Below are positions 10,982-62,370 of a stretch of 64,000 nucleotides of DNA, piece after piece. The position numbers were made by a program, and so were the translations under genes. The stretch covers positions 17,654-81,653 of the forward strand of contig DASXRG010000136.1 in NCBI GenBank assembly GCA_036506735.1, written 5' to 3'. Within the stretch, counting starts at the first letter, position 1, and each line of letters opens with the position of its first letter. The stretch comes from Candidatus Binatia bacterium (GTDB lineage Bacteria > Desulfobacterota > Binatia > UBA9968). The notes under the pieces were generated by a model. The model ran no database searches. It was not told the DNA's origin and saw only the letters and a list, made by a program, of their open reading frames with translations.

Positions 10982-13114
10982 GTGAAGACCAAACTCGATC
11001 TTCCTTCGAACTTGTTTAGCTATAAACCGACCCAACTCGCCAGCGGCATGCTGGACCGGGTGCGCAAGAAAGGCGTCGGCGCGATCGCGCCCGAGAAGGG
11101 CCTTTCACAAAAAGGCCTTTCTCAAGCCGTCGCCCAAAGCGCTCTAAAGATCCAGCAGCAACTCAGCGTCAAGGCGAACACCGACAACCGCGTCCAGTCG
11201 CGCGTCGAGAGCCAAACGGCGCGGTCGGCGGTGCAGGACGGCCAAACCGTCAAGGTCTTAACCAAGCAGGCGATTCAAGGGGAAACCAATCAGCAGCAGC
11301 GGTCGGAAGTCTCGCAGCGCTCCCAGCAGGTGGTCCAGGGCCAAACCAACGGCAAGCCGGTCTACAAAAATGTGGAGCGGGAGGTTTTTCAGATCAACGT
11401 CGGAAACAGGGAAGCGGAGTTCAAGGAAGTGCGCGTCAACCACGACAGCTCGACGCGGAACGTCGTGCAGAAGGCCAACGCCACGCGCGTGAGCCTCAGC
11501 ACTGACAGTTCCAGCACCCGAAACCGTAGCGATACGGTCGCCGCTCAGAACCGAACCGAGACCGAGACCTACGTCAGAACCTACGACTCTTTGGGCAATT
11601 TGGTGAGCGAGAAGGCGAGCCGGCAAGCCGTTACGACGACGCAGCAGCAGCAATCGGCCGTGAAGGCGCAGGCGGAGGCGAGCCGGCAAGTCGCGCAGCA
11701 GACCACCGTCGAGGCGAGCCAGGAAGGTAAGAAATCCGTCCGCGCGGGCACGACCGAAACGACCGACACTTCCAAGGGTCATCAACAAATCGAAACTCAA
11801 ATCCAATCGAAGACCGCCACGTTGGTGGAAAACCTCGGCGCCGACGGAGAGGTTCTTTCCGCCAAGGCCAGCGCGCAGCAGGTGACGACGACCGAGGCGA
11901 GAACGATCGACACGAGCCGCGCGAGCCACACCGAGCAAACCAACCTGACGCGCACCGGCCCGGATCAATTGGAAACCACAAGCCATACCCAATACGATAC
12001 CAGAGCCAGGACCGTGGATCAGATCAAAACCGAAGGCGACACGCAGCAATTCGACGACAAGGGCGCGCTGGTGCGCGAGCAGGCCTTCGAGCGACAGGTC
12101 ACCACGACCAGCACCGAGAACCGAAACGGCGAATCGCAGACGCGCGCGGCGACCAGCAAAGAAAAGAACGGCGACACCGTGGCGGAAACCGACATTACGT
12201 CAAGCGAATCGGTCGCCGCCGCAACGAGAGTCGTGTCCGAACAGGGCGGCGCGAAAACCGAAAGGGTGATCGAGAGCCAACTCCACACCGAACTGCGCGC
12301 CGACTTGGCGAACCGAATGGAGGCCGACGGGCAGAGGACGATCTCGTTCGACACGCAGCAGACCCGCACGGCACAAACCGCCGATCTGACCGCGGGCACG
12401 AATGGCCAGGGCCGCCTCGTCGAGAGCGAAACGAAGATCGCCCAACTAGCCCGCGGCCAAATCGAATATTCGCCCGAGACGCAGCAAGTCGGCGTCCACG
12501 CCGGAGCGGGCGCGATCATCGTCGACATTAGAAGCGCCGCCGGACTGCGCGCCAGCTTTAAACTCGATGAAGGACAGCTTGAATTCGACTTTTCGGCCGA
12601 GACTGCGACGGTCTCTCATCAGGAAGTCACGACCGGGAAAGTGATCCAGGGAAACGACGGCGCATCGACCGTGACGGGCTCATCCACCGACTCGCAGCGT
12701 GCTTCTGTCGAGACCGTTCACTTTCACGGCCACGTCAACGCGTCCGTCGATGCCGCAGGCAACCGGGTGTTGGAGCTCGACGGAGAACTCACTCAGGATT
12801 CAGCCGCCGTTCTCGTAGCCAACCAGCAGCAGGGAATCCAGGCCGAGCGAAGCTACACAGAGCTGGATGTCTTCGGGCGGCTGGCGGTCAATCGCCAGGT
12901 CTCCACGAACGGTTCCGCAACCGAGTTTCAGACTCAGGCTGAAGCCGAGCTGACAGTGGCTCGCGTCGAGAAGCGCGAAGACGCCGCGGTCGGCATGGCG
13001 AGCCTCAGTCGCTTGACCACGGCCGATGCCGTGCGCGCGGGTTTCCAAGCCTATCGCAGCACGATTCAACTTCACGTCGGCGGCTTCGATCTCGGCATCA
13101 GCTTCGTAGCTTAG
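10982..13114 (+). CDS. Gln/Thr/Ser-rich low-complexity protein (710 aa), unknown function, likely largely disordered
   Basis: No Cys and few hydrophobic residues. Internal ~70-90-aa repeats with motif G.LVSEKAS.Q.VTTT (three times). C-terminal ~170 aa less biased (…IQLHVGGFDLGISFVA). AAGGA RBS, GTG start. Preceded by a 228-bp lower-GC leader. Confidence 0.6.
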   Translation: MKTKLDLPSNLFSYKPTQLASGMLDRVRKKGVGAIAPEKGLSQKGLSQAVAQSALKIQQQLSVKANTDNRVQSRVESQTARSAVQDGQTVKVLTKQAIQGETNQQQRSEVSQRSQQVVQGQTNGKPVYKNVEREVFQINVGNREAEFKEVRVNHDSSTRNVVQKANATRVSLSTDSSSTRNRSDTVAAQNRTETETYVRTYDSLGNLVSEKASRQAVTTTQQQQSAVKAQAEASRQVAQQTTVEASQEGKKSVRAGTTETTDTSKGHQQIETQIQSKTATLVENLGADGEVLSAKASAQQVTTTEARTIDTSRASHTEQTNLTRTGPDQLETTSHTQYDTRARTVDQIKTEGDTQQFDDKGALVREQAFERQVTTTSTENRNGESQTRAATSKEKNGDTVAETDITSSESVAAATRVVSEQGGAKTERVIESQLHTELRADLANRMEADGQRTISFDTQQTRTAQTADLTAGTNGQGRLVESETKIAQLARGQIEYSPETQQVGVHAGAGAIIVDIRSAAGLRASFKLDEGQLEFDFSAETATVSHQEVTTGKVIQGNDGASTVTGSSTDSQRASVETVHFHGHVNASVDAAGNRVLELDGELTQDSAAVLVANQQQGIQAERSYTELDVFGRLAVNRQVSTNGSATEFQTQAEAELTVARVEKREDAAVGMASLSRLTTADAVRAGFQAYRSTIQLHVGGFDLGISFVA

Positions 13115-44749: not shown

Positions 44750-45265
44750 TCAGGACCTTGTCCCAAGAACATCCTTGGTCAATAACACCGCCACCGGCCG
44801 GTTCGAGTCTTCCGCCAAGATCCAGGCGTTCTTGAAAGTCCAATCGATGTCTTCCACGCTGCGCAGGACGTAGTGCCGGACGCCTAAAGCATCCAAGACG
44901 GGTATCGTCGCGGTTCCGACTCTGGCGAAGCCCCGATCGCCGATATCGCCCGCGTAATAAATAACCAGAAGCATCGGCAGCTCGAGTTGTATCCCCGTCG
45001 TCACGATGCCGTTGCAGCTGTTGAGCAGCCCCGCATTCTGCATGAGCATCGCCGGCTTTTTTCCGACCAAGCGGGCGCCGGCGCAAATCCCTATTCCCTC
45101 TTCCTCACGGCACAGAGGGACGTGGATGATCTCTGCGTCGCGCTCGAGGGCGTCGATGAGATCGAGGCAGTTGATATCCGGAAGGCTCGCAACGAGATTG
45201 ACCCCGGCTTTTTTCGCGCCGTCCAGGATCGCCCGAGCCCTGGCTTTTGCGTCCATCTCAGTCAC
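44750..45265 (-). CDS. Sulfopyruvate/phosphonopyruvate decarboxylase alpha subunit-like (TPP_enzyme_N, ComD-like)
   Basis: 171 aa. ...IHVPLCREEEGIGICAGARLVGKKPAMLMQNAGLLNSCNGIVT... is a ThDP pyrimidine-binding domain. 4-nt overlap with the upstream SBP gene. Confidence 0.7.
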   Translation of the reverse strand: MTEMDAKARARAILDGAKKAGVNLVASLPDINCLDLIDALERDAEIIHVPLCREEEGIGICAGARLVGKKPAMLMQNAGLLNSCNGIVTTGIQLELPMLLVIYYAGDIGDRGFARVGTATIPVLDALGVRHYVLRSVEDIDWTFKNAWILAEDSNRPVAVLLTKDVLGTRS

Positions 45266-46290
45266 TGGTAAAGCCGCGCGATCCAGCCGCTCTTGTCGAG
45301 TTCTTCCACGAAGCTGGTGTCGACAAAAGCCGCCGGATCGGCGCCCCTCGCTTCGGGCATCGACGACTCGGCAAAAGAGTCGAGAATCGCCTTGACCCCG
45401 TTTTGCGTCGGGTACGGTGCCCTGGACAGATAGCGCAGCGCGTACACGCGATACGTCTCCTCCAAAACCTCGGGATTCTGCGTCTTCGTGTATTTCTGAA
45501 TAATTTTGAGTGAGAACGTCTTGTCGATCTTAAAGCGATGGATCGCCTCGGTGAGGGAACGAATAAATTGGCCGACCGTTTCCTTGCGCTCGCGAATGAA
45601 GCGCCGCGTGGTTCCGTAGCAGGTGCTGGCGTACTCGATGCCCGTCGAGCCGGCGTCCATGAATTCCCGGAAGCCGAGCGTCTGCGCGGTGATGTTCGAA
45701 GGTGGAGAGAAGACGCCGCCGTCGAGCAGCCCCGACTTCATGCTCGCCAATATTTCCGGATAGCCGCCCATCGGGCGAACGACAACGTCCCGGCTCGGGT
45801 CGAGACCGGATCGTCTTAGTAGAGTGCGCAAAGTAAAATCCGAAAGGCTCCCCAGCGTGGTGACACCGAATCTTTTTCCCTTGAGGTCTTTCGGCTCCTT
45901 CATGTCCGCAAGTGTCATCAGCGAGAAGACCAAAGTGTTGTAAGTGGTCGCAATCAGCACGGCGTCCTTGGCCCCATTGAGATTCGCGGCGACCAGGGCG
46001 TTTCCTCCCGTGCCGATTACCTGCAACTGGTTTGAAAGAAGGGCCGCCATCGAACGCGGGCCGCCGGTAAGATAGACGAGATCTACGTCGAGCCCGTGCT
46101 TGCGGAAGATTCCGGTTTCCTTCGCGATCCACAAAACCGCCTGGGCCCCGCTGATCGAAGGATAACTGATCGTCAAATGATTGAGCTTGCCCTCCTGGGC
46201 AAACCCGAAAGCGCGCGCCAAAACGACCGCCGCCAAGACCAGTCCGCACGACGTGACTTTCCTCAAAGATTCACTCAACCTTTCTTCCAA
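45262..46290 (-). CDS. NMT1/SsuA-like periplasmic SBP embedded between decarboxylase subunit genes
   Basis: Signal peptide VTSCGLVLAAVVLARAFGFAQE. SsuA-like core (LLSNQLQVIGTGGNA; LKGKRFGVTTLGSLSD). Overlaps the comE-like stop by 16 nt. Confidence 0.75.
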   Translation of the reverse strand: MEERLSESLRKVTSCGLVLAAVVLARAFGFAQEGKLNHLTISYPSISGAQAVLWIAKETGIFRKHGLDVDLVYLTGGPRSMAALLSNQLQVIGTGGNALVAANLNGAKDAVLIATTYNTLVFSLMTLADMKEPKDLKGKRFGVTTLGSLSDFTLRTLLRRSGLDPSRDVVVRPMGGYPEILASMKSGLLDGGVFSPPSNITAQTLGFREFMDAGSTGIEYASTCYGTTRRFIRERKETVGQFIRSLTEAIHRFKIDKTFSLKIIQKYTKTQNPEVLEETYRVYALRYLSRAPYPTQNGVKAILDSFAESSMPEARGADPAAFVDTSFVEELDKSGWIARLYQ

Positions 46291-49234: not shown

Positions 49235-51766
49235 TTATCGCCCGATCATCGTGAACGCCGCCCAGTAGTACGGATGGCCGTACGCCGGATTGCTTTTCAC
49301 TTTTATGAGCGCCGCGCGCGCCGCCTCCTGCGGCGGCCGGTTGAGCGCGGCTTCGTAAAAGCTTTGCATCCACAGCGCGGTCGCCGCCGAGTCCACCTTC
49401 CAGTGCGACACGACCAGGGTTCCCGCGCCCGCGTAAATCAGCGCGCGCACGATGCCGAGGACTTCGTTCGCGTGCGTCGCCTCGGCGCGTCCGGTTTCGC
49501 ACGCGGAAAGCACGACCAGCCGACTTTTTTCGAGCGGCAGGCCGAACATCTCCGCCGCGGTCAGCTTGCCGTCGTCGCCGGCGCCGCCAGCGAGCGACAG
49601 GTAGGAGAGCATCGGCTCGGCGCCGTCGAATTTGCCGTGCACGGAGAGATGAATCACGTCGAAATCGCGCACCCAGGATTTAACATCGCCTTCGCGCGCG
49701 AGCTCATCGACGACGACCTTGTTGCGCCCGGGAAAAAGTTTCGCGATCGCCTGCACCTCGGGAACCGCCGCGTCGATGCTCGGATCCGCGACCGCGAGCA
49801 GCCTGCCGCCCGATAACCCCGGCGGCCGCCTGAGGCCGAGCAGCACGGAGGCGCTCGGGGCGTAGGTGATCTGAAAACGCTCGCCGAGGTAACGCCCGTC
49901 CGCCGGATCCTGGAAAACCTGAAATGGAACGTAATGCAGGTCTTCGTGCGGGATAATGACCAGCCGCTCGCTGCGAATGCGCGCGAGGACCGGCTGGATG
50001 AGGAAAAGGAACAGCTCGCGCGCGGTCGTTTCATCGAAACGCGCGTTCCGGTCGGCGAGACTTTTTTGCAGCGCGGCGACCTTGCCGATCATCTCGCTCC
50101 GCGGCAGAAAAACGCTGCGCACGAATACCGAGTCGGGCGCGATGTGCCAGACGATGATGCTGTGCTCGAGGACAAGGTATTCGAGCACCTCATAACCTTC
50201 CTCGCGCATCGATTGCTGCAAGGCCTTGAGACTCGCCGGCGCCGAAGTGACGAGGTTCTGCAGCCGCGGCGACTCGACGGCCATGCGCGCGACGACTTTT
50301 TGGTGCTGCGCCTCGAGCGTCCGTATCTGATCCTGGAGCGCGCTCATCTGCGGCGCGTTCTTCGCCGCGTCGCGCTGGCTCGCGATTTCGAAGAGCCGGC
50401 TCTGCGCGTCGGCGATCCGGGTTCGGAGCACCGTCGATTCCGCGTAGAGCTTTTGTTCCTCGGGCCGTTCGAGCCCGAGCTTGCGGCTGGCGAGCAGATC
50501 GGCGAGCGCCCGGGAGCGCGAACGCTCGAACAGCTCGAAGGCCTCGGCGTAACGGCGGCGCTCGAGCAACTGCTGGATCGGCGCGTAGTAGAAATTGATC
50601 CGGTCCTCGAGAAAAGTGCCCCGGCTGCGCTCGTCGCGCAGCGCCCGGCGGTCGCTTTCGAGCGTCTCGACCGCTTTCAAGAAATCCGCCAGTGCCGCGT
50701 CGTTGTTGCCGCGCAGCTCGTTCATCATGCCTTCGGTGAAATGGGTCCGCGCCTGAACGACGTCGGCAAAGCCGCCCGCCTGCTGCTCCATGCGCTTGGA
50801 AGCCTGGTAGATCTCGTTGAGCATCGGCGGAATTTCTCCGGGCGGCGGGACAAATTTTTCCGTCACCAGAACGTCGGCGGCCTTCTTCGGATGGAACACG
50901 CCGGTCTTTTGCACGGTCTGGTGCATGCGTTCCTGGGACTGGATCAGGCCGCGGCTCGCTTCGACGTTGCCGATCAGGCCCTCGGTCTGGCGCGCGAGCC
51001 CGGAGTAGCCGAGCTTGCGGACGATCGCGAGCCCCTGCTCGAGGTCGGCGCGCGCGCGGTCGAGCGCCTGATAGCACGGCTCGAACGAGCGCTGGAAATC
51101 GCATTTTCCGCCGGTTTTGAAATACACGTCCGACCGGTTCAAGTAGGCAAAATACGAAGCCATCGGATCTTTCGCCTGTGCGGCGACCGTGACCTCGCGG
51201 TTGAGAGTATCCGACGCGCCGGCGAGGTTGCCCTGCGCGATCTGGACGGTGCCGAGCACGTCCAGCGCGCGCGCCAGCACGTCCTTGTCGCTGATGCCTT
51301 CCGCAAGCCGCACGGCTTGCGTCGCATCGGCGAAGGCCTGGCCGACGTTTCGCCGCGAAGATTCGGCGAGCGCCTTCCACGCGAGCGCGTCCGCCTGATG
51401 CGCCACGTTTCGAGCGCGCTTGGCGGCCTCTTCGGCCTGCTGGTATAACGCGATGGCATTCGGCCACTGGCTTTGCATCCGATAAATGTGGCCCTGTTTG
51501 GTCAAGCCGAGCGCGAGCGCCGGCCAGTCGCCGCGGGCGGCGAGCATTTGGTTGCTGGCGCCGAGCTCCGCGTCCGCCTGCGCGAGGTCGGAGAGCCGCG
51601 AGCGCGGGTCGCCGGTTTTGCGAAACTGGTCGACAAATCCGTCGATGCGCTCGATCGCGCGCTTCTGCAAGGCGATCGGATCGCTTTGGGCGCGGGCAGA
51701 TTGCGCCGGCAGGAGCAGACACAAAAACAGCGCCGTAAATACGAAAGTGAAATCGCGTCGATCCAT
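49235..51766 (-). CDS. Secreted TPR-CHAT protein (caspase-like His/Cys protease domain)
   Basis: Signal peptide MDRRDFTFVFTALFLCLLLPAQSARAQS with GGGAG RBS. N-terminal helical TPR-like repeats. C-terminal CHAT domain with His (DVIHLSVHGKFD) and Cys (LVVLSACETG) dyad. Confidence 0.8.
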   Translation of the reverse strand: MDRRDFTFVFTALFLCLLLPAQSARAQSDPIALQKRAIERIDGFVDQFRKTGDPRSRLSDLAQADAELGASNQMLAARGDWPALALGLTKQGHIYRMQSQWPNAIALYQQAEEAAKRARNVAHQADALAWKALAESSRRNVGQAFADATQAVRLAEGISDKDVLARALDVLGTVQIAQGNLAGASDTLNREVTVAAQAKDPMASYFAYLNRSDVYFKTGGKCDFQRSFEPCYQALDRARADLEQGLAIVRKLGYSGLARQTEGLIGNVEASRGLIQSQERMHQTVQKTGVFHPKKAADVLVTEKFVPPPGEIPPMLNEIYQASKRMEQQAGGFADVVQARTHFTEGMMNELRGNNDAALADFLKAVETLESDRRALRDERSRGTFLEDRINFYYAPIQQLLERRRYAEAFELFERSRSRALADLLASRKLGLERPEEQKLYAESTVLRTRIADAQSRLFEIASQRDAAKNAPQMSALQDQIRTLEAQHQKVVARMAVESPRLQNLVTSAPASLKALQQSMREEGYEVLEYLVLEHSIIVWHIAPDSVFVRSVFLPRSEMIGKVAALQKSLADRNARFDETTARELFLFLIQPVLARIRSERLVIIPHEDLHYVPFQVFQDPADGRYLGERFQITYAPSASVLLGLRRPPGLSGGRLLAVADPSIDAAVPEVQAIAKLFPGRNKVVVDELAREGDVKSWVRDFDVIHLSVHGKFDGAEPMLSYLSLAGGAGDDGKLTAAEMFGLPLEKSRLVVLSACETGRAEATHANEVLGIVRALIYAGAGTLVVSHWKVDSAATALWMQSFYEAALNRPPQEAARAALIKVKSNPAYGHPYYWAAFTMIGR

Positions 51767-51964
51767 AAGCGCTCCCGGCCGGGTGGCACTGAAAATCAAA
51801 CGTTAATCGCCGCGGCTGCCTCGCCGAAGTAGTGTGACGTAAATTAAGTCAATTGAGGCGAAGCGTCAAGCGAGAACGGCCACACACGCCGACAAAAGCG
51901 CGTTCTTGCGGGCTAGGGTCGTATCTTGTAAGAACAGCTACACGATCGCAGAAAGGAGTTAACG

Positions 51965-56732: not shown

Positions 56733-57323
56733 CTAAAACGGCAACGCTATCTGCTCCCCCGCCTTGGGCTCGGCGCGTGGACGTTGCGCCAATGCTTTGA
56801 TGCGTCCCTCGAGCCATTGAATATAGAATCGATGGGTCTTCCGCTTCTGCAGCGCGGCGATGCAGAGGCGGCGAACTGATTGCGAATACGCCGGCCAGTT
56901 TTCTCGCATGACGCGCGGCAGGCGAATGTACGTCGGCGCATCGTCGCAAAACAAATTGCTCCGCGCTAGCGTCCAGATGTCGCACTGCTTCTCGCCGTAA
57001 GGAATCGTACCGCCCTTCCCTACTTTCTTTTCCTTCCAAGAAATCTTCGACAGCCCTTGCAGCAAGTGCGTCATCTCGTGGCCGATCGTATTGTAGGTGA
57101 GCGTTTTGACTTTGAGGCGGATCGTGAGCTTCGCCGCGGCTTCGGCGCGGAGCGGCACGAGCGCGCTGCCGAGATGCGCCGCCGTGTAACCGACGGTGAT
57201 TTTTTTGCCCTGCAGCTCGGGAAAATGGCGCAACGCGTTTTGCAGCATGTCGATGACGCGGCGGGAGAGCCGCTTTTTCATCCGCGGCGTGAAGAGGAAA
57301 GGGAATTCCGGCGCGCGACTCAT
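56733..57323 (-). CDS. Putative HExxH zinc metallopeptidase (SprT/YgjP-like)
   Basis: Motif TIGHEMTHLLQG. Family placement uncertain. Confidence 0.45.
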   Translation of the reverse strand: MSRAPEFPFLFTPRMKKRLSRRVIDMLQNALRHFPELQGKKITVGYTAAHLGSALVPLRAEAAAKLTIRLKVKTLTYNTIGHEMTHLLQGLSKISWKEKKVGKGGTIPYGEKQCDIWTLARSNLFCDDAPTYIRLPRVMRENWPAYSQSVRRLCIAALQKRKTHRFYIQWLEGRIKALAQRPRAEPKAGEQIALPF

Positions 57324-57392: not shown

Positions 57393-58490
57393 TTAGTCCA
57401 GTTTAGTATGGAGCCAAGTCAAAACCGTCTTAAAAATGTCGGGAATCGCGCCCATGTGGCCGCCGGAAAAAAGCCGCATCGCTTTCGGCTCGCCGTGCTC
57501 GAGCAGCAGGTAAAAATCCTCCAGCGGCACCTGCTTGTCCTCCTTGCCGTTGACGAGCAGCATCGGCGCGCACGGTTTGTCGAGCCAGCCCTGAGTTTTT
57601 AACGAGAGCGCCGGCATGACCTCGATCAGCTCTTCGAAAGTTTTCTTGCCGAAGAGATTCGCCCGCGCCTCGATCAAGTCGAAAAGATAGGACGGCGCGT
57701 TGCGCGATCTTTCCTGCCATTCGGCCTGAAAAAAGGAGTGGACGCCGCCGCCCCAGTTGACGGCGGCGCGCAATCTTTCATGCTCGACGTGGGCCATCTT
57801 GGTGGACCAGTAGCCGCCGAAGCTCGCGCCGACTACGGCGATTTTCTTCGGATCGACCTCGGGTCGCTTGAGCAAATAATCCAGCGCGGCCGAGTGAACG
57901 CGATGCGCGTCGGGCGACGCCAGCATCGGACATTCGCCGGTGCCCGGGCTGTCCAACACCAAACAGCCCCAGCCCTCGCGCACGAACGCCTCGGCAAAGG
58001 TCAGACGCTCTTCTTTCCAGTTGTCGATCCCGCCCCAGTGCATCACCAACGGCGCGGGCAGCTTCTTGGGAAATCTCAGGTGGCCGGCTATCTCTTTGCC
58101 GTCGAAGGGGATCGCGACGCGCTCGAGCGGAATGTCGAAGTAGCGGGAAGCGGCCAGATACATTTCGCGGGTCTTGAGATAAGCCTGCCGCTTGCCCGGA
58201 GAGTTGGGAAATGGATGGCGCGCGATGCCGTAGTAACCGTAGGCTTTGAGTAAGGCCGCCTTCGCCTGCTTGGCGTCGCCGCGAGCCTCCGCCGCCTTCG
58301 CCTTGTTTTCCCAGCGGGCGCCGATCTCGCTCCACGCCGCGGCCCACTTTTCGGCTTCGATGCTGTCCAGCCTGGCGAGCGCTTCTTCGGCCTCTGCCTT
58401 GTCGGCGTGAGAAAACGGGGCGCGCAGGCCGACGCGGCTCCGAATGTCGTCTTTGATTTCAGCGAGAGTACGTGCGGCGAACATGCTCAT
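57393..58490 (-). CDS. Alpha/beta hydrolase, FrsA/DUF1100-like esterase family, paralog
   Basis: LVMHWGGIDNWKEE...KIAVVGASFGGYW...LLVNGKEDKQVP...SGGHM. Third copy in the window. Confidence 0.7.
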   Translation of the reverse strand: MSMFAARTLAEIKDDIRSRVGLRAPFSHADKAEAEEALARLDSIEAEKWAAAWSEIGARWENKAKAAEARGDAKQAKAALLKAYGYYGIARHPFPNSPGKRQAYLKTREMYLAASRYFDIPLERVAIPFDGKEIAGHLRFPKKLPAPLVMHWGGIDNWKEERLTFAEAFVREGWGCLVLDSPGTGECPMLASPDAHRVHSAALDYLLKRPEVDPKKIAVVGASFGGYWSTKMAHVEHERLRAAVNWGGGVHSFFQAEWQERSRNAPSYLFDLIEARANLFGKKTFEELIEVMPALSLKTQGWLDKPCAPMLLVNGKEDKQVPLEDFYLLLEHGEPKAMRLFSGGHMGAIPDIFKTVLTWLHTKLD

Positions 58491-58776
58491 TCCTCCCCTT
58501 TGACGTGAACTCTAGTGCCCGAGCCCAGGCTTTGCAACCCGGTTTGAGTCCGAGAGAGAATGTGATCGCTTCCCATGCTGCGCCGTATTTTGTCTTAACA
58601 TCAAAACAATTCCGTATTTCGGTATGATTACGGTTTTTGGTTCCTGGTAGAGAACAGACCGTGGCCAGAAATCCCTATAAATGCGACAAATCAGTGGCTT
58701 ATAAGACGGAACATTGCAGAATTCTTTGGCCTGCCTTTTGCTCCCTCACCCTGGATCCTGGTCTTGGAGAACCGCT

Positions 58777-61308
58777 ATGCAAACTTTTCAGCCATTATTT
58801 TTGTTCAACCTGCCCATTCCAGTTTGGCAAATCGCGCTCTATGTCGCGCTGATGAGTTTCTTTCTGATCAACCACAAGATCAGATTATGCCTTGCCACGT
58901 CGTATCTGTTCATCTTGTTTTGGCTTTACTATTCGTTCCGGGCCGATCTCCTTTTGGTTACCAAAGAAGATTTCGTCGCGCAGGCTGCCTATACCGTGTT
59001 TGGATTTGCCCTCTTGGGACTTGGCCTGTTTGCCTATTTCTTTGTCGAAGGCGGCACGGAAACTCTTTTAGAAAACTTAAGCAAGCGGAACGGGGAAATC
59101 GCCGACCTGAAGTTAAAATTGAAAAAGGCGGAAAAAAGAGTCCACGGGCTGGAGACCCAGGCGGAGGAAGCGCAGCGCAGTTTTCAAGCGCAGGAATCGT
59201 CCCTGGCGAAACAACTGGAGGAAGAGTTAAACGCCGACATCGCCGCGCTCGAACATCGATTAAACGACCGGGAAAATCTGCTCGAGAAACGCAACGAAGA
59301 GATTGCCGACCTCAAGTCAACGGCAAGAGAGGCCGAAAAAAGCGCATCCGGATTGAAGACCCAGGTTGAAGAAATGCAGCGCAGCCTCGAAGCCGATCAG
59401 TCGACCTTTAGGAAAAGCCTGGAAAAAGAGTTCCACAAAAAGGTCGCCGATCTGGAGCATCGACTTAAGGACGGTGCGAATCTCCTCGAGAAGCGTAATG
59501 GAGAGATCGCCGACTTAAAATCCAAGGCAAAAGATGCGGAGAAAAACGCCCAGGCGCTGAAAACTCAAGTCGAGGACGGTCAGCGCAGGGCGGATGAGGC
59601 GGAAAAAAGCGCCCGCGCCTTGAAGACCCAGATCGAAGACGCGCAGCGCAGTTTCCAAGCTGAGCGATCGGCCGCCAAGAAAGCGCTCGAAAAGGAATTC
59701 AACACTCTCGAAAAAGAGTTCAATACAACGATCGCCGATCTCGAGCGCCGGCTAGAGGACGGCGAAAGCCTCATCGAGAAGCGCAACGGCGAGATCGCCG
59801 ACTTCAAGGCCAAGGCAAAGGAGACGGAGAAGAGCGCCCAGGCGCTGAAAACCCAGGTCGAGGACAGCCAGCGCCGGGCGGATGAAGCGGAAAAAAGCGC
59901 CCGCACGTTGAAGGCGCAGGTCGAAGAAGCTCAGCGCAGCTCTAACGCCCGGGACTCGACCGCGAAGAAAAAACTCGAGCAAGAGCTCAACGCAAAGATC
60001 GATGAACTCGAGCACCGGCTCAAGGACGGCGAGAGCCTGCTCGAGCAGCGCAACAGCGAGATCGCCGACCTGAAGTCCAAGACCAAAGAAGCGGAGAAAA
60101 ATTTTCATGCACTGAAGACTCAGGTCGAAGAAAGCCAGGCAAAGGTTAGGGAAGCGGAAAAAGACGCTCGCGCGTTCAAGGAAGACACGCAACGCGGCCA
60201 TACCGCCCAGGAATCGGCCGCCAAGAAAAAACTCGAGAAAGAGTTTAACGCAAAGATCGCCGACGTCGAACATCAACTGAAGGACAGCGAGAATCTCCTG
60301 GAGAAGCGCAACGGCGAGATTGCCGATCTGAAGTCGAAGGCAAAAGAGGCGGAAAAAGGCGCCCGGACGCTGAAGGCGCAGGTCGAGGAGACGCAGCGCA
60401 GCCTCCATGCGGAGCAGTCGGCCCTCATGAAAAAACTGGCGGACGAGCTGAACGGAAAGGTCGCCGACCTCCAACGGCGGCTGGAAGACGGCCAGGCTTT
60501 GTTAGAGAAGCGCAATGGAGAGATCGCCAGCTTCAAGCAGAAAACGGAAGAAGCGGAAAAAAGCGCGCGCGCATTGAAGCAGCAGGCGGAAGAAACGCAG
60601 CGAAGCCTTGACACGCGGGAATCGGCCGCCACAAAACAACTCGCGGACGAGCTCAACGCCAAGATCGCGGACCTCGAGCAACGGCTGAAGGACCGTGAGA
60701 ATCTGTTAGGGAAACGGAACGAGGAGATCGCGGACTTCAAGCGTAAGACGGTCGACGCGGAAAAAACCGCCTGGCTGTCGAAAAACCTGGACCAAAAAGA
60801 TCGACAAGGCCCTCCGGCTCAAATTTCCAAAAACGCGCTGGAGCAAGCGCTTAAAAATAACAAGGCACTGGAAAAACAGCTCAATGGTTTGGAAGAGCAG
60901 ATTAAAAACAAAGACAACCTGTTGAGCCTGATGGCGAAGCGCAACGGAGAGATTGCCGATTTGAAGCTGAGGGCGGAAGAAGCGGAGAAAAAAGTCCACG
61001 CGCTGAAAAATCACGACAAAGGCGTTGGGCACGATGCGCAAATACAAGATTCCAACAACAAGAATCTGGAGCAGGAGTTGAAAAACAAGATGCTCGAGCT
61101 CAAACAGCTCCGGGAGCAGGTTAACCATAAAGAAGGCCTTCTCGGTCTCATGGCAAAACGCAACCTGGAACTTGCCGATCTGAAGTCAAAGGCCGATGAA
61201 AGGATCGAAGCGTTGGAGGCTCAACTGCAAGAAAGCCGGCCGGTGCTCCACACCGGAGAATCCGGCAACGGCAATTCGCACTCCAATCATCAGAACCACA
61301 GACCTTGA
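58777..61308 (+). CDS. Membrane-anchored giant coiled-coil tandem-repeat protein (3 N-terminal TM helices, then ~10 repeats of ~66-93 residues)
   Basis: Start at ATG 58777 (GGAGAA RBS); ORF could extend to 58714. TM segments WQIALYVALMSFFLI, LCLATSYLFILFWLYY, AAYTVFGFALLGLGLFAYFFV. Repeat unit LEKRNGEIADLKSKAKEAEKSARALKTQVEEAQRS...EKEFNAKIADLEHRLKDGENL with heptad pattern. Confidence 0.7.
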   Translation: MQTFQPLFLFNLPIPVWQIALYVALMSFFLINHKIRLCLATSYLFILFWLYYSFRADLLLVTKEDFVAQAAYTVFGFALLGLGLFAYFFVEGGTETLLENLSKRNGEIADLKLKLKKAEKRVHGLETQAEEAQRSFQAQESSLAKQLEEELNADIAALEHRLNDRENLLEKRNEEIADLKSTAREAEKSASGLKTQVEEMQRSLEADQSTFRKSLEKEFHKKVADLEHRLKDGANLLEKRNGEIADLKSKAKDAEKNAQALKTQVEDGQRRADEAEKSARALKTQIEDAQRSFQAERSAAKKALEKEFNTLEKEFNTTIADLERRLEDGESLIEKRNGEIADFKAKAKETEKSAQALKTQVEDSQRRADEAEKSARTLKAQVEEAQRSSNARDSTAKKKLEQELNAKIDELEHRLKDGESLLEQRNSEIADLKSKTKEAEKNFHALKTQVEESQAKVREAEKDARAFKEDTQRGHTAQESAAKKKLEKEFNAKIADVEHQLKDSENLLEKRNGEIADLKSKAKEAEKGARTLKAQVEETQRSLHAEQSALMKKLADELNGKVADLQRRLEDGQALLEKRNGEIASFKQKTEEAEKSARALKQQAEETQRSLDTRESAATKQLADELNAKIADLEQRLKDRENLLGKRNEEIADFKRKTVDAEKTAWLSKNLDQKDRQGPPAQISKNALEQALKNNKALEKQLNGLEEQIKNKDNLLSLMAKRNGEIADLKLRAEEAEKKVHALKNHDKGVGHDAQIQDSNNKNLEQELKNKMLELKQLREQVNHKEGLLGLMAKRNLELADLKSKADERIEALEAQLQESRPVLHTGESGNGNSHSNHQNHRP
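59083..61230 (+). repeat. Tandem degenerate in-frame DNA repeats (~200-280 bp, ~10 copies) inside the coiled-coil gene
   Basis: Recurring block aagcgcaacggNgagatYgccgaYctgaag (KRNGEIADLK) at ~59083, 59284, 59491, 59770, 60037, 60298, 60508, 60706, 60937 and 61150. Confidence 0.7.
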
Positions 61309-61359
61309 CCCGCCCTGAATAAACGACCACCGTGGCGAAACGATCGCCGCGCGTTCCGT

Positions 61360-62370
61360 TTACCTTTTATCCCCCCAGAGCTTGGCGAAGAAATCGCTTT
61401 TATCCAGCTCGATTAAATATCTGCGATCGATCAAGTCCGCCGGCTTGGCGAGTTTCGCCCGCGGGTCCGTCGGGGCGATCTCGTCGAGCGAAGCCTGCAG
61501 CGCCGATGGTTGGATTTCCAAACGGCGCTCGAGGGCGGGAATCTCCGATTGATAAGCGGCGTCGAGAATCTTCGTGTCGGTGACGCGCATATATTTCCCC
61601 AGGACTTTGTAGACGAGGTTTTTGTCGGTGTGCAAAATTTTCGCCGCCTCGGCCATCGCCCGCATGAACCTTCCGATGACCGGACCGCGCTGAGCGATCA
61701 CCGAGCGGAGCGTGACGAACGTAGTGGCGGCATAAGGAATGCGAAGCTCCAGACCGTTGACGATCAGACGGTATCCCTGCGACGCCGCGCCCGCGTCGCC
61801 CGGCGCAACCAGCGAGGCCGCATCGACACGGCCGGCGACGAGCGCCGCCAGCGACTCCGGCCCCCCGCCTGTCGGCACCGCCTGAACATCCTTGCCGGCG
61901 TCGAGACCGAATTTTCTCAGCGCCTGGATGGTGAAATAGTGGGTATTGCTGCCGAACCGCCCTATCCCGATCCTTCGTCCTTTCAGCTCCTCGGGCCGTT
62001 TGATCTCCGCCTTGCCCATAATGTTGTGCGTCAGGATGTTTTTTACGGCGCCGATGAAGACCAAATCGGTGCTGCCTTGAACGTAAGCGCGCACGTTGCC
62101 GATCGCGCCCGTGACGGCGATCTCCCCGTCGCCGCCCAACATGGCGGCGGTTGCGACCGGCGACGACGAGATGAAAACCAGGCGAAAATCCAGATCGTAT
62201 TTTTTAAACAGTCCCGCATCCTGGGCGATCCACGGCATCGATTGCGACAAGACTTGCGCCGAGTGAAGGCCGACCAGCTTGTCGGCCGCGCAAACTCCGC
62301 CGTAAGGCAACAACGAGCCCAGCACGACGAACGCCGACCAACGAAAATATCTGTGAAAATGTTTGAACAT
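61360..62370 (-). CDS. NMT1/SsuA-like periplasmic SBP, orphan
   Basis: Signal peptide FRWSAFVVLGSLLPYGGVCAADK. SsuA-like core (AMLGGDGEIAVTGAIGN; LKGRRIGIGRFGSNTH). Confidence 0.75.
   Translation of the reverse strand: MFKHFHRYFRWSAFVVLGSLLPYGGVCAADKLVGLHSAQVLSQSMPWIAQDAGLFKKYDLDFRLVFISSSPVATAAMLGGDGEIAVTGAIGNVRAYVQGSTDLVFIGAVKNILTHNIMGKAEIKRPEELKGRRIGIGRFGSNTHYFTIQALRKFGLDAGKDVQAVPTGGGPESLAALVAGRVDAASLVAPGDAGAASQGYRLIVNGLELRIPYAATTFVTLRSVIAQRGPVIGRFMRAMAEAAKILHTDKNLVYKVLGKYMRVTDTKILDAAYQSEIPALERRLEIQPSALQASLDEIAPTDPRAKLAKPADLIDRRYLIELDKSDFFAKLWGDKR

What the first reader, a model, noticed from the sequence alone, without database searches (positions are those of the whole stretch)
58490..61308. 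Membrane-anchored ~840-aa protein built from ~10 tandem 66-93-residue coiled-coil repeats
After three N-terminal TM helices the protein is a continuous heptad-patterned coiled coil of KRNGEIADLK...EKSARALKTQVEE...KEFNAKIADLEHRLKDGENLLE units. At DNA level these are degenerate ~200-280-bp repeats, divergent enough to be ancient rather than a recent expansion. The gene sits behind a ~290-bp lower-GC leader carrying a small dyad (TCCGTAtttcgGTAtgatTACGG). A coiled coil this long is of the order of 100 nm. A membrane-tethered rod of that length could be a cytoskeletal (CCRP-like) element, a periplasm-spanning or surface fibril, or a molecular ruler. The repeat family is not one I recognise.
Basis: seen in the sequence. 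Interest (0 to 1): 0.68.

Follow-up and report, generated by a model that had tools for sequence, protein, structure and literature searches.

The report
Membrane-anchored coiled-coil repeat rod protein
This is a real, conserved gene for an 843-residue protein made of a three-helix membrane anchor, a roughly 100-nm coiled-coil rod of about ten repeats and a conserved end motif; it belongs to an undescribed family from uncultured soil and sediment bacteria, appears to be switched on by a sigma-54 promoter, and its cellular role is still unknown.

Summary
The gene is window 58777-61308 (+) and encodes 843 aa: a 3-TM N-terminal module, nine full repeats plus one partial repeat anchored on KRNGEIADLK (68-96 aa), and a conserved C-terminal motif.

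No Pfam, NCBIfam or PDB family reaches threshold; every hit is a generic coiled-coil match. About 70 homologues exist, all in uncultured Syntrophobacteraceae, Binatota or deltaproteobacterial assemblies, labelled hypothetical or, wrongly, 'chromosome segregation ATPase'.

The rod has a 3.58-residue hydrophobic period with one fixed heptad break per repeat. It is rich in i-to-i+5 salt pairs, which points to a parallel, in-register oligomer. Charge distribution places the rod in the cytoplasm.

Repeat number and insertions (7, 14, 21, 42 aa) vary between relatives, so it is a variable spacer, not a strict ruler.

Sigma-54 elements recur in two distant homologue lineages.

The 3-TM module also occurs as free-standing ~90-aa proteins.

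Best reading: a sigma-54-induced, membrane-tethered cytoplasmic scaffold or tether. The function is inferred, not shown. Interest is moderate.

The parts
58491..58776 (+). Intergenic leader and promoter region (286 nt, lower GC) between the divergent FrsA-like hydrolase gene and the coiled-coil gene
   Evidence: Blocks of this region are conserved at DNA level in six orthologous loci whose proteins are only ~49% identical.
58583..58640 (+). Candidate enhancer (UAS) for a sigma-54 activator, about 90-145 nt upstream of the -24 element.
   Evidence: Alignment A3. The inner CCG-N5-CGG is kept in all six loci; the outer TACGG arm is TACGA in four of the six. That it is a protein-binding site is inferred from position only.
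58689..58701 (+). IHF-consensus-like site AATCAGTGGCTTA (WATCARNNNNTTR), lying between the upstream block and the promoter
   Evidence: It is present in all six near-clade loci at a fixed distance from the promoter. The consensus positions are invariant while the four N positions vary (TGGC, TGTC, TCTC, TCCC, GGGC).
58727..58742 (+). Sigma-54-type -24/-12 promoter element TGGCCTGCCTTTTGCT (GG-N10-GC). The predicted transcription start is near 58753.
   Evidence: It is the only match to TGGC-N7-TTGCW in the 64-kb window on either strand. It is conserved in six loci, with a single C/T difference at one unspecified spacer position. Equivalent elements lie 54 and 45 nt before the ATG in the distant homologue loci L019 and L020.
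58766..58769 (+). Shine-Dalgarno GGAG, 7 nt before the ATG
   Evidence: GGAG/GGTG is conserved in alignment A3.
58777..61308 (+). Coding sequence, 843 aa plus stop codon
   Evidence: dN/dS against the L018 orthologue is 0.135 for aa 1-95, 0.31 for aa 103-645 and 0.21 for aa 646-819 (no whole-gene value was obtained).
58777..59061 (+). N-terminal 3-TM module (aa 1-95; helices at about aa 16-31, 35-62, 66-89; conserved LPIPVWQ, TSYxFxLYW and G76). TM3 continues directly into the rod helix.
   Evidence: A profile search found 80 representatives, including many free-standing 88-100-aa proteins. No Pfam, NCBIfam or PDB match.
59083..60711 (+). Core repeats 1-7 (aa 103-645): 68, 68, 96, 89, 86, 68, 68 aa, 55-71% identical to each other. 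Repeats 3-5 carry inserts of about 21 aa, and repeat 3 also has a 7-aa duplication (LEKEFNT).
60712..61155 (+). Divergent repeats 8-9 (aa 646-793; 75 and 73 aa). Each has a Pro/Gly-containing polar linker (aa ~660-685 and 749-760) followed by LL(S/G)LMAKRN.
61129..61224 (+). Most conserved element of the rod: the C-terminal motif K-x-G-L-L-x-L-M-A-K-R-N-x-E-L-A-D-L-K (aa 785-816). Candidate docking or assembly site.
   Evidence: Invariant columns K785, G787, L788, L789, L791, M792, K794, R795, N796, E798, L799, A800 and K803 across 28 proteins.
61225..61305 (+). Polar, low-complexity tail, predicted disordered (pLDDT below 50 for aa 820-842; the model's last helix ends at aa 819)
61331..61351 (+). 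Terminator-like GC-rich hairpin just after the stop codon
   Evidence: This is a consensus scan only, and the count in the region is not above the shuffle expectation.

Best explanation
The gene encodes an inner-membrane-anchored structural protein with three modules:
1. A conserved 3-TM N-terminal domain that also exists elsewhere as a free-standing ~90-aa protein.
2. A variable-length alpha-helical rod built from 64/68-residue units. Each unit is about 9 heptads with one phase-locked discontinuity, giving a weakly supercoiled coil with a mean period of 3.58. The rod most likely forms a parallel, in-register homo-oligomer (probably a dimer) on the cytoplasmic side.
3. Two linker-separated terminal units ending in an almost invariant LLxLMAKRNxELADLK motif.

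Transcription is from a sigma-54 promoter, with an IHF-type bend site and an upstream conserved block. The protein would therefore be made only when a so far unidentified enhancer-binding activator is switched on.

Most likely role: a membrane-tethered scaffold or tether. The repeat array acts as a spacer and the conserved C-terminal motif docks a partner or another rod.

Shown: gene reality, architecture, family conservation, the periodicity and salt-pair pattern, and the conserved promoter elements.
Inferred: topology, oligomer state, sigma-54 dependence in vivo, and the scaffold/tether role.
For: - Architecture and repeats.
- Family with the same three modules: 35 close homologues and a second subfamily of 34 hits (query included; the weaker hits were not checked for the 3-TM module). 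All are in Syntrophobacteraceae, Binatia/Binatota or deltaproteobacterial MAGs.
- Purifying selection on all modules, relaxed in the rod: dN/dS 0.135, 0.31 and 0.21.
- Coiled coil: 3.57-residue period at power 6.3 against a shuffle maximum of 1.5. Only 2 Pro in 717 rod residues. All-helical AlphaFold model with TM3 continuous into the rod.
- Heptad constraint: indels of 7, 14, 21 and 42 aa between repeats and relatives.
- Parallel in-register pairing: attractive g-to-e' (i, i+5) pairs make up 42% (68-mers) and 30% (64-mers), against 10% and 7% for other i, i+5 pairs. Ile/Val/Leu/Ala occupy a positions and Leu dominates d positions.
- Topology: N-tail K+R 0.06; loop 1 K+R 2.3 with no acidic residues; loop 2 balanced; no signal peptide.
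- Sigma-54 promoter: unique match in the window, correctly oriented 35 nt before the ATG. It is conserved together with the IHF-like site and upstream block in six loci. TGGC-N7-TTGC recurs in L019 and L020.
- The gene is always monocistronic with no conserved partner gene.
Against: - No experiment and no homologue of known function exists. The scaffold/tether role rests on architecture alone.
- The full-length AlphaFold model has low confidence (pLDDT 61, pTM 0.24) and is a monomer, so it cannot show oligomer state or whether the rod is extended.
- The polar stretch at unit positions 28-40 of the 64-mers has almost no core residues and could be a hinge.
- The distant clade (P0013-P0035) shows no recognisable sigma-54 element but has a different conserved leader.
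- No activator gene (GAFTGA motif) lies in the window.
- The topology comes from my own charge count, not from a trained predictor.
Confidence: 0.45

Rival explanations
1. Envelope spacer: the topology is N-in/C-out, so the rod lies in the periplasm. It would be a TolA-, Lpp- or periskeletal-type element that spans or lines the envelope.
For: Loop 2 also carries about 2.2 K+R, so the charge bias is not absolute. Sigma-54 regulons are enriched for cell-exterior functions (PMC3162934). Periplasmic solute-binding protein genes are frequent neighbours.
Against: Counting K+R, the N-out/C-in orientation has about 5.7 on the predicted inside against 2.2 on the outside. There is no signal peptide. A 740-residue domain that is 41% charged would have to be exported after TM3. 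At about 100 nm the rod is several times the width of a periplasm. The solute-binding protein neighbours differ in family, side and strand, and these genomes are full of them (two NMT1 genes in this window alone).
Confidence: 0.12
2. The rod is not extended. The units fold back at the polar mid-unit segment or at the 21-aa inserts into antiparallel hairpins or bundles (spectrin/EzrA-like), giving a shorter, thicker or arc-shaped membrane-proximal structure.
For: Unit positions 28-40 are polar, variable and nearly free of core residues in the 64-mers. AlphaFold breaks the helix at aa 257-277 and 465-479 (inside the inserts) and at aa 660-685 and 749-760. Ala-rich core positions 13, 16 and 20 are also compatible with tightly packed antiparallel helices.
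Against: Almost no Gly or Pro at the putative turns. AlphaFold predicts uninterrupted helices of about 180-190 residues across several units. The g-to-e' i, i+5 salt-pair enrichment is the signature of parallel in-register pairing. The periodicity is coherent across all seven units.
Confidence: 0.2
3. Membrane-stress effector in the manner of PspA/Vipp1: a sigma-54-induced helical protein that coats or stabilises damaged inner membrane.
For: The promoter layout (upstream site, IHF-like site, -24/-12) is the same as the classical E. coli pspA promoter (textbook knowledge). The protein is helical and membrane-associated.
Against: No match to the PspA/IM30 family in Pfam or NCBIfam. No pspBC-like or pspF-like neighbours. 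PspA-type proteins are about 220 aa, peripheral and not repetitive. This protein is an integral membrane protein with a variable repeat array.
Confidence: 0.08
4. The database label is right: it is an SMC-like chromosome segregation ATPase.
For: JGI names many homologues 'chromosome segregation ATPase'. TIGR02168 SMC gives E = 4.6e-19. PADLOC LmuB/JetC hits.
Against: The SMC score is 67.7 bits against a cutoff of 567, and the match covers only the coiled-coil arm of the model (positions 670-936). There is no Walker A motif, no head or hinge domain, and the N-terminus is a 3-TM domain.
Confidence: 0.01
5. Assembly artefact or spurious ORF in repetitive DNA.
For: Repetitive genes are prone to mis-assembly. 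The length variation among the P0003-P0012 relatives, whose repeats are more alike, could partly be collapse.
Against: The longest exact repeat is 20 nt. An independent assembly has the same layout. dN/dS is 0.13-0.31. Promoter, SD and termini are conserved.
Confidence: 0.01

Closest known systems
EzrA (Firmicutes division regulator)
   Same: N-terminal membrane anchor followed by a long cytoplasmic all-helical repeat region; a scaffold with no enzymatic domain.
   Different: EzrA has one TM helix and about four to five ~100-aa spectrin-like triple-helix repeats that form an arc (from memory of the literature). This protein has three TM helices and 64/68-aa units predicted as a continuous helix. 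No EzrA family hit in Pfam or NCBIfam. No link to division genes.
Bacterial coiled-coil-rich proteins (crescentin, FilP/Scy, Helicobacter Ccrp, cyanobacterial CCRPs)
   Same: Long heptad-based rods with stutter-type discontinuities; structural rather than catalytic; lineage-specific families.
   Different: Those are soluble or peripheral. Scy uses a 51-residue repeat and crescentin has an intermediate-filament-like segmented rod (from memory). The Rod_CreS match is far below threshold: 16.9 bits against a cutoff of 100 in P0030, and faint elsewhere. This protein is an integral membrane protein with a regular 64/68-residue unit.
Tropomyosin and the myosin rod
   Same: Parallel two-stranded coiled coil with a superimposed long-period repeat, Ala clusters in the core and skip or stutter residues at fixed phase.
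   Different: Eukaryotic, no membrane anchor, different period (about 39-40 and 28/196 residues). The Pfam Tropomyosin score is 25.4 against a cutoff of 38.6. The resemblance is analogy, not homology.
SMC / Rad50 / MukB coiled-coil arms
   Same: Composition and heptad pattern, which explains the automatic 'chromosome segregation ATPase' labels.
   Different: No ATPase head, no hinge, no Walker A. SMC arms are antiparallel and intramolecular.
PspA and its sigma-54/IHF/PspF promoter
   Same: A helical membrane-associated protein expressed from a -24/-12 promoter with an IHF site and an upstream activator site.
   Different: No sequence relationship, different size and architecture, and no psp-type neighbours.
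TolA
   Same: N-terminal inner-membrane anchor, then a long Lys/Ala/Glu-rich helical domain, then a conserved C-terminal interaction domain.
   Different: TolA has one TM helix, its helix is periplasmic and about 200-250 residues long, its C-terminal domain is globular, and it sits in the tol-pal operon. None of this applies here.

Membership tests
SMC / 'chromosome segregation ATPase' (TIGR02168, COG1196) | N- and C-terminal ABC-type ATPase head with Walker A/B and signature motif | tested here: not met
   No [AG]xxxxGK[ST] motif anywhere in the protein. The N-terminus is a 3-TM domain.
SMC / 'chromosome segregation ATPase' (TIGR02168, COG1196) | Whole-protein score above the curated cutoff, with a hinge domain | tested here: not met
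   67.7 bits against a cutoff of 567.35. Only model positions 670-936 (the arm) align.
Crescentin / intermediate-filament-like CCRP (Pfam Rod_CreS PF19220) | Match to the rod-domain model above the gathering score | tested here: not met
   Not among the window protein's hits. 16.9 bits against 100 in homologue P0030. Only 'faint' precomputed hits elsewhere.
Crescentin / intermediate-filament-like CCRP (Pfam Rod_CreS PF19220) | Self-assembly into nucleotide-independent filaments | not testable with these tools
   Needs purified protein and electron microscopy.
Generic parallel coiled coil (structural class, not a homology family) | Hydrophobic a/d seam with a period of about 3.5-3.67 over long stretches, and helix-compatible composition | tested here: met
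   Period 3.57-3.59, power 6.3 against a shuffle maximum of 1.5. Core positions mapped on 64 + 174 repeat units. All-helix model.
Generic parallel coiled coil (structural class, not a homology family) | Complementary g-to-e' charges in the parallel in-register arrangement | tested here: met
   42% (68-mers) and 30% (64-mers) attractive pairs, against 10% and 7% background. This is suggestive of a parallel arrangement, not proof of oligomer number.
EzrA family | Match to the EzrA family model; single N-terminal TM helix plus spectrin-like repeats | tested here: not met
   No EzrA hit in Pfam or NCBIfam at E <= 1. There are three TM helices.
PspA/IM30/Vipp1 | Match to the PspA_IM30 model; psp operon context | tested here: not met
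   No hit. Neighbours are unrelated.
Sigma-54-dependent gene (regulatory class) | Conserved -24 GG / -12 GC element with the correct 10-nt spacing, close upstream of the gene | tested here: met
   TGGCCTGCCTTTTGCT at 58727-58742 is the only such match in the window. It is conserved in six loci and equivalent elements occur in L019 and L020.
Sigma-54-dependent gene (regulatory class) | Dependence on RpoN and an enhancer-binding activator in vivo | not testable with these tools
   No GAFTGA-type activator is encoded in the window. rpoN was not looked for: no genome is available.
Surface M-protein-like or autotransporter coiled-coil fibrils | Signal peptide plus a cell-wall (LPXTG) or outer-membrane anchor | tested here: not met
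   The N-terminus is a 3-TM domain with an acidic 12-aa tail. There is no C-terminal sorting signal or beta-barrel.

The most novel reading that the evidence does not exclude
This may be the founding example of an undescribed, sigma-54-switched membrane-skeleton or tether system of Binatota and Desulfobacterota-type bacteria. In it, an autonomous 3-TM module (also found as free-standing ~90-aa proteins) nucleates parallel rods of about 60-130 nm, and their invariant LLxLMAKRNxELADLK tips capture a cytoplasmic structure or link rods into a sub-membrane lattice. The 64/68-residue unit, with its phase-locked heptad break, would set a defined, nearly straight geometry.
Probability: 0.25. Interest if true: 0.6.

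Novelty: new member of a known kind. Interest (0 to 1): 0.4.

Why it matters
Coiled-coil-rich structural proteins shape bacterial cells and position their contents. Almost all studied examples come from a few cultured model organisms.

This family is confined to abundant but uncultured soil and sediment lineages (Binatota, Syntrophobacteraceae-like), and public annotation mislabels it as SMC-like.

Three things make it experimentally tractable:
- a clean three-module design;
- natural length variants;
- a recognisable sigma-54 promoter.

The soluble rod can be expressed. The promoter can be tested in a heterologous rpoN-plus or rpoN-minus host. The C-terminal motif can be used as bait.

If the rod proves to be a membrane tether or lattice, it would add an integral-membrane, condition-induced class to the bacterial cytoskeleton. 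If not, the practical value is a corrected annotation and a new domain definition for the 3-TM module.

Tried and rejected
1. Pfam, NCBIfam, PADLOC, PHROGs and PDB sequence searches with the whole protein gave only sub-threshold generic coiled-coil hits: SMC, Rad50, tropomyosin, fibrinogen, LmuB, JetC.

3. The first genome-contig scan, with the single protein, found nothing. The alignment-based scan gave five loci.

4. I looked for a conserved partner gene in 10 loci and found none. The NMT1/TctC solute-binding protein neighbours are inconsistent in family, side and strand, so I treat them as background.

5. I looked for a sigma-54 activator in the window using the GAFTGA/ESELFGH motifs and found none.

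6. Rfam found nothing on the window or on the leaders. There are no tRNAs in the window.

7. My first sigma-54 pattern had the wrong spacer (N8) and hit only a chance site on the minus strand. The corrected N7 pattern was run.

8. The profile search with the C-terminal motif alone (A7) returned only short fragments of the same family and no new architectures.

9. Literature searches found no paper on this family.

10. The strict-ruler idea was rejected because length varies among close relatives.

Full report

Yes. The ORF listing gives one long ORF, 58714..61308 on the plus strand (864 aa from a TTG). The true start is almost certainly the ATG at 58777 (843 aa), for three reasons:
- Every homologue starts at the equivalent Met.
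- A GGAG lies 7 nt upstream.
- The TTG falls inside a conserved promoter block.

The gene stands alone between two genes on the opposite strand: a divergent FrsA-like alpha/beta hydrolase (57393-58490) and a convergent NMT1-type solute-binding protein (61360-62370).

DNA repeat finding recovers ten copies of the KRNGEIADLK-encoding anchor. They are spaced 204, 204, 288, 267, 258, 204, 204, 225 and 219 nt apart at 60-81% identity. At protein level the units are aa 103-170, 171-238, 239-334, 335-423, 424-509, 510-577, 578-645, 646-720 and 721-793, with a partial tenth unit running into the tail.

An assembly artefact is very unlikely. The longest exact repeat inside the gene is only 20 nt. An independently assembled orthologue (L018, protein P0001, 85% identical) has the same unit order.

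The gene is under purifying selection against that orthologue. dN/dS is 0.135 for the membrane module, 0.31 for the rod and 0.21 for the C-terminal units.

**2. Anatomy of the protein**

*Membrane module.* The first ~95 residues form three hydrophobic helices. This is supported by hydropathy, the full-length AlphaFold model and a model of the domain alone (pLDDT 77). TM3 runs without a break into the rod helix.

*Composition of the rod.* The rod (aa 103-819) is 41% charged with a net charge of -4. It is 13% Ala and 12% Leu and contains only two prolines.

*Core pattern.* I pooled 64 distinct 68-residue units and 174 distinct 64-residue units from the family.
- Core positions of the 68-mer are 6, 9, 13, 16, 20, 23, 27, (30), 34, (37), 41, 45, 49, 53, 56, 60, (63) and 66/67.
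- That is five regular heptads, a 4-4-4 irregularity at positions 41-53, then regular heptads again.
- The 64-mer of the distant clade equals nine heptads plus one extra residue at the same place. The 68-mer has four more residues there.
- The measured hydrophobic period is 3.57-3.59 residues, far above shuffles. On average the coil is only weakly supercoiled.

*Indels keep the heptad frame.* Insertions between units and between relatives come as 7, 14, 21 or 42 residues. This is what a heptad register would impose.

*Pairing signature.* Charged residues five apart across the seam (g to e') are complementary in 42% of 68-mer heptads and 30% of 64-mer heptads. For other i, i+5 pairs the figures are 10% and 7%. 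Ile/Val/Leu/Ala occupy a positions and Leu dominates d positions. These are the textbook marks of a parallel, in-register coiled coil. Two chains anchored side by side in one membrane fit that arrangement.

*Caveats on the model.* The full-length AlphaFold model is all-helical but of low confidence (pLDDT 61, pTM 0.24). It breaks the helix at aa 257-277 and 465-479 (in the ~21-aa inserts) and at aa 660-685 and 749-760 (the Pro/Gly-containing linkers of units 8 and 9). If fully extended, the rod would be about 107 nm long.

**3. The family**

*Close family.* The large protein database holds 35 close homologues of 476-1028 aa. All full-length members have the same three parts:
- the 3-TM module (invariant P15, W17, W49 and others);
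- a variable number of units;
- a nearly invariant C-terminal motif, K-x-G-LL-x-LM-A-KRN-x-ELA-DLK.

*Second subfamily.* Shorter proteins (P0047-like, 265-621 aa) have the same membrane module and a related unit.

*Taxonomy and labels.* The titles of the genome records name uncultured Syntrophobacteraceae, Candidatus Binatia/Binatota and 'deltaproteobacterium' MAGs. Source annotations are 'hypothetical protein' or automatic coiled-coil labels such as 'chromosome segregation ATPase', 'ParB family' and 'CEP63'.

*Repeat turnover.* The central units are 55-71% identical to one another within the window protein. They show clear one-to-one orthology only with the 85% relative. Against ~49% relatives, only the termini are orthologous. 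The array therefore turns over, while consensus positions and both ends are held.

*Length variation.* Lengths among relatives with near-identical termini run from 650 to 875 aa. Some of this could be assembly collapse in those metagenomes.

*The membrane module is autonomous.* A profile of the module alone, run against 1.84 billion representatives, found 80 proteins. Most of the weaker ones are free-standing 88-100-aa proteins that end right after TM3. The anchor is thus an independent, undescribed small-membrane-protein domain. It has no Pfam, NCBIfam or PDB sequence hit and no Foldseek-PDB hit.

**4. Known families**

Nothing reaches threshold.
- Pfam: Fib_alpha, Tropomyosin, Fez1 and others, all below their gathering scores.
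- NCBIfam: SMC at 67.7 bits against a cutoff of 567, plus Rad50 and others.
- PDB, PADLOC (LmuB/JetC arms) and PHROGs likewise.

All matches cover only coiled-coil segments. There is no Walker A motif. The SMC label is therefore wrong.

**5. The leader is a sigma-54 promoter region (new here)**

I aligned the upstream DNA of the window with L018 and with four loci whose proteins are only ~49% identical. Long identical blocks sit in otherwise diverged sequence. There are three.

(a) *Promoter element.* TGGCCTGCCTTTTGCT lies at 58727-58742.
- It fits the sigma-54 -24/-12 consensus TGGCACG-N4-TTGCW, with the required GG-N10-GC spacing (consensus from memory of Barrios et al. 1999).
- It is the only match to TGGC-N7-TTGCW in the whole 64-kb window on either strand.
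- It points at the gene and ends 35 nt before the ATG.

(b) *Bend site.* AATCAGTGGCTTA lies at 58689-58701 and fits the IHF consensus WATCARNNNNTTR. Across the six loci the consensus letters are fixed while the four N positions vary.

That is where enhancer-binding activators normally bind.

Two distant members of the superfamily carry their own TGGC-N7-TTGC element:
- L019 (P0050 lineage), 54 nt before the start codon.
- L020 (P0125 lineage), 45 nt before the start codon.

Their flanking sequence is unrelated to the window's, and they share a ~30-nt element further upstream. An eight-base pattern has a chance of roughly 0.002 per 150 nt of one strand, so three independent occurrences are not a coincidence.

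Limits:
- The distant 64-mer clade lacks a recognisable element and has a different conserved leader.
- No activator gene lies in the window.
- Dependence on RpoN in vivo is inferred.

**6. Topology**

Across 33 family members the charge distribution is as follows:

| Segment | Mean K+R | Mean D+E |
|---|---|---|
| 12-residue N-tail | 0.06 | 0.82 |
| Loop 1 | 2.30 | 0.00 |
| Loop 2 | 2.18 | 2.15 |
| 15 residues after TM3 | 3.42 | 4.70 |

By the positive-inside rule this gives N-out/C-in, which places the rod in the cytoplasm. That also avoids exporting 740 highly charged residues. This is my own count, not a trained predictor.

**7. Context**

In ten loci the gene is always monocistronic. In the six full-length homologue loci with gene kb or more upstream (L006, L008-L011, L013) it follows a gene-free leader of about 430-700 nt (286 nt in the window). 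No neighbour is conserved. Periplasmic solute-binding protein genes (NMT1, TctC) are often adjacent. They differ in family, side and strand, and they are abundant in these genomes. I treat them as background.

**8. Most likely mechanism**

*Shown:* a conserved three-module membrane protein with a long, regular, parallel-type coiled-coil rod, and a conserved sigma-54-type promoter.

*Inferred:*
- A signal-activated enhancer-binding protein switches the gene on.
- The product inserts with its rod in the cytoplasm and pairs in parallel.
- The repeat array acts as a spacer of variable length between the membrane module and the invariant C-terminal motif.
- That motif docks a partner or other rods.

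This makes the protein a membrane-tethered scaffold or tether. I put 0.45 on this package: about 0.8 on the structural statements and about 0.3 on the role.

*Rivals* (these overlap the main package rather than sum with it; the fold-back one concerns geometry only):
- Periplasmic spacer, 0.12.
- Fold-back bundle rather than extended rod, 0.2 (this affects geometry only).
- PspA-like stress effector, 0.08.
- SMC-like ATPase, 0.01.
- Artefact, 0.01.

**9. Comparison with what is known, and novelty**

In design the protein works most like EzrA or TolA (anchor, helical spacer, interaction end) and like coiled-coil-rich cytoskeletal proteins. Its rod periodicity recalls tropomyosin and the myosin rod. 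It is a member of none of these families, because every membership test on sequence failed.

It is best filed as a new, undescribed family within the known kind 'bacterial coiled-coil-rich structural proteins'. Three distinctive traits stand out:
- an autonomous 3-TM module;
- a phase-locked 64/68-residue unit;
- sigma-54 control.

Interest is moderate (0.4). Nothing here overturns expectations. The family is widespread in uncultured lineages, is mis-annotated, and is now experimentally approachable.

Noticed in passing
L006:10897-16364 (minus strand): In the 2.35-Mb contig that carries homologue P0027, a complete rRNA operon (16S, two tRNAs, 23S, 5S) lies immediately downstream of the coiled-coil gene and convergent with it. 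This explains the 6-kb 'gene-free' gap in the gene calls. It also provides a 16S sequence that could place that organism taxonomically.
   Followed up: partly
L010:7830-8000, L003-L006, L009, L013 (about 130 nt before the ATG): The distant 64-mer clade has its own conserved leader and no sigma-54 element. RNAalifold suggests a stem (CCAGC...GCTGG) that overlaps the Shine-Dalgarno GGAGG, with little covariation support and no Rfam match. It could be a translational control element.
   Followed up: partly
L019:6853-6890 and L020:5868-5905: Two distant homologue loci share a ~30-nt element, TTTGCGACAyTTTT(T)GAyGwA..TTGCCrT, about 50-90 nt upstream of their sigma-54-like promoters. It is a candidate shared enhancer and differs from the window's upstream block.
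   Followed up: no
L015:4506-5273, L016, L017: A free-standing 90-aa homologue of the 3-TM module (P0079) lies directly downstream of a DksA/TraR-type zinc-finger gene in three contigs. Its significance is unknown.
   Followed up: no
L020:1-3070: The short homologue P0125 lies about 3 kb from a divergent mreB-mreC-mreD-PBP2 cell-shape cluster, in a 'Deltaproteobacteria bacterium' MAG. This is a single case and could be coincidence.
   Followed up: no
window 49235-51799 (-): An 854-aa protein with a TPR region and a C-terminal CHAT (caspase-like protease) domain. It has a weak PADLOC BovA hit, E = 4.9e-6.
   Followed up: no
window 56733-57323 (-): A 196-aa ORF with no Pfam hit that contains an HExxH motif (IGHEMTHLLQG). 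It may be an undescribed small zinc metalloprotease.
   Followed up: no
window 10982-13114 (+): A 710-aa ORF with no Pfam family at E <= 1e-5.
   Followed up: no
window 45262-46290 (-) and 61360-62370 (-): Two NMT1-type periplasmic solute-binding protein genes lie in the window. NMT1 or TctC binding-protein genes also sit next to the coiled-coil gene in most related loci, in varying orientation. I judged this a genome-wide abundance effect rather than a functional link, but did not test it statistically.
   Followed up: partly
window 58778-58794 (-): A TGGC-N8-TTGCA match on the minus strand overlaps the start of the gene. The spacer is wrong for sigma-54 and the match count equals chance expectation.
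   Followed up: yes
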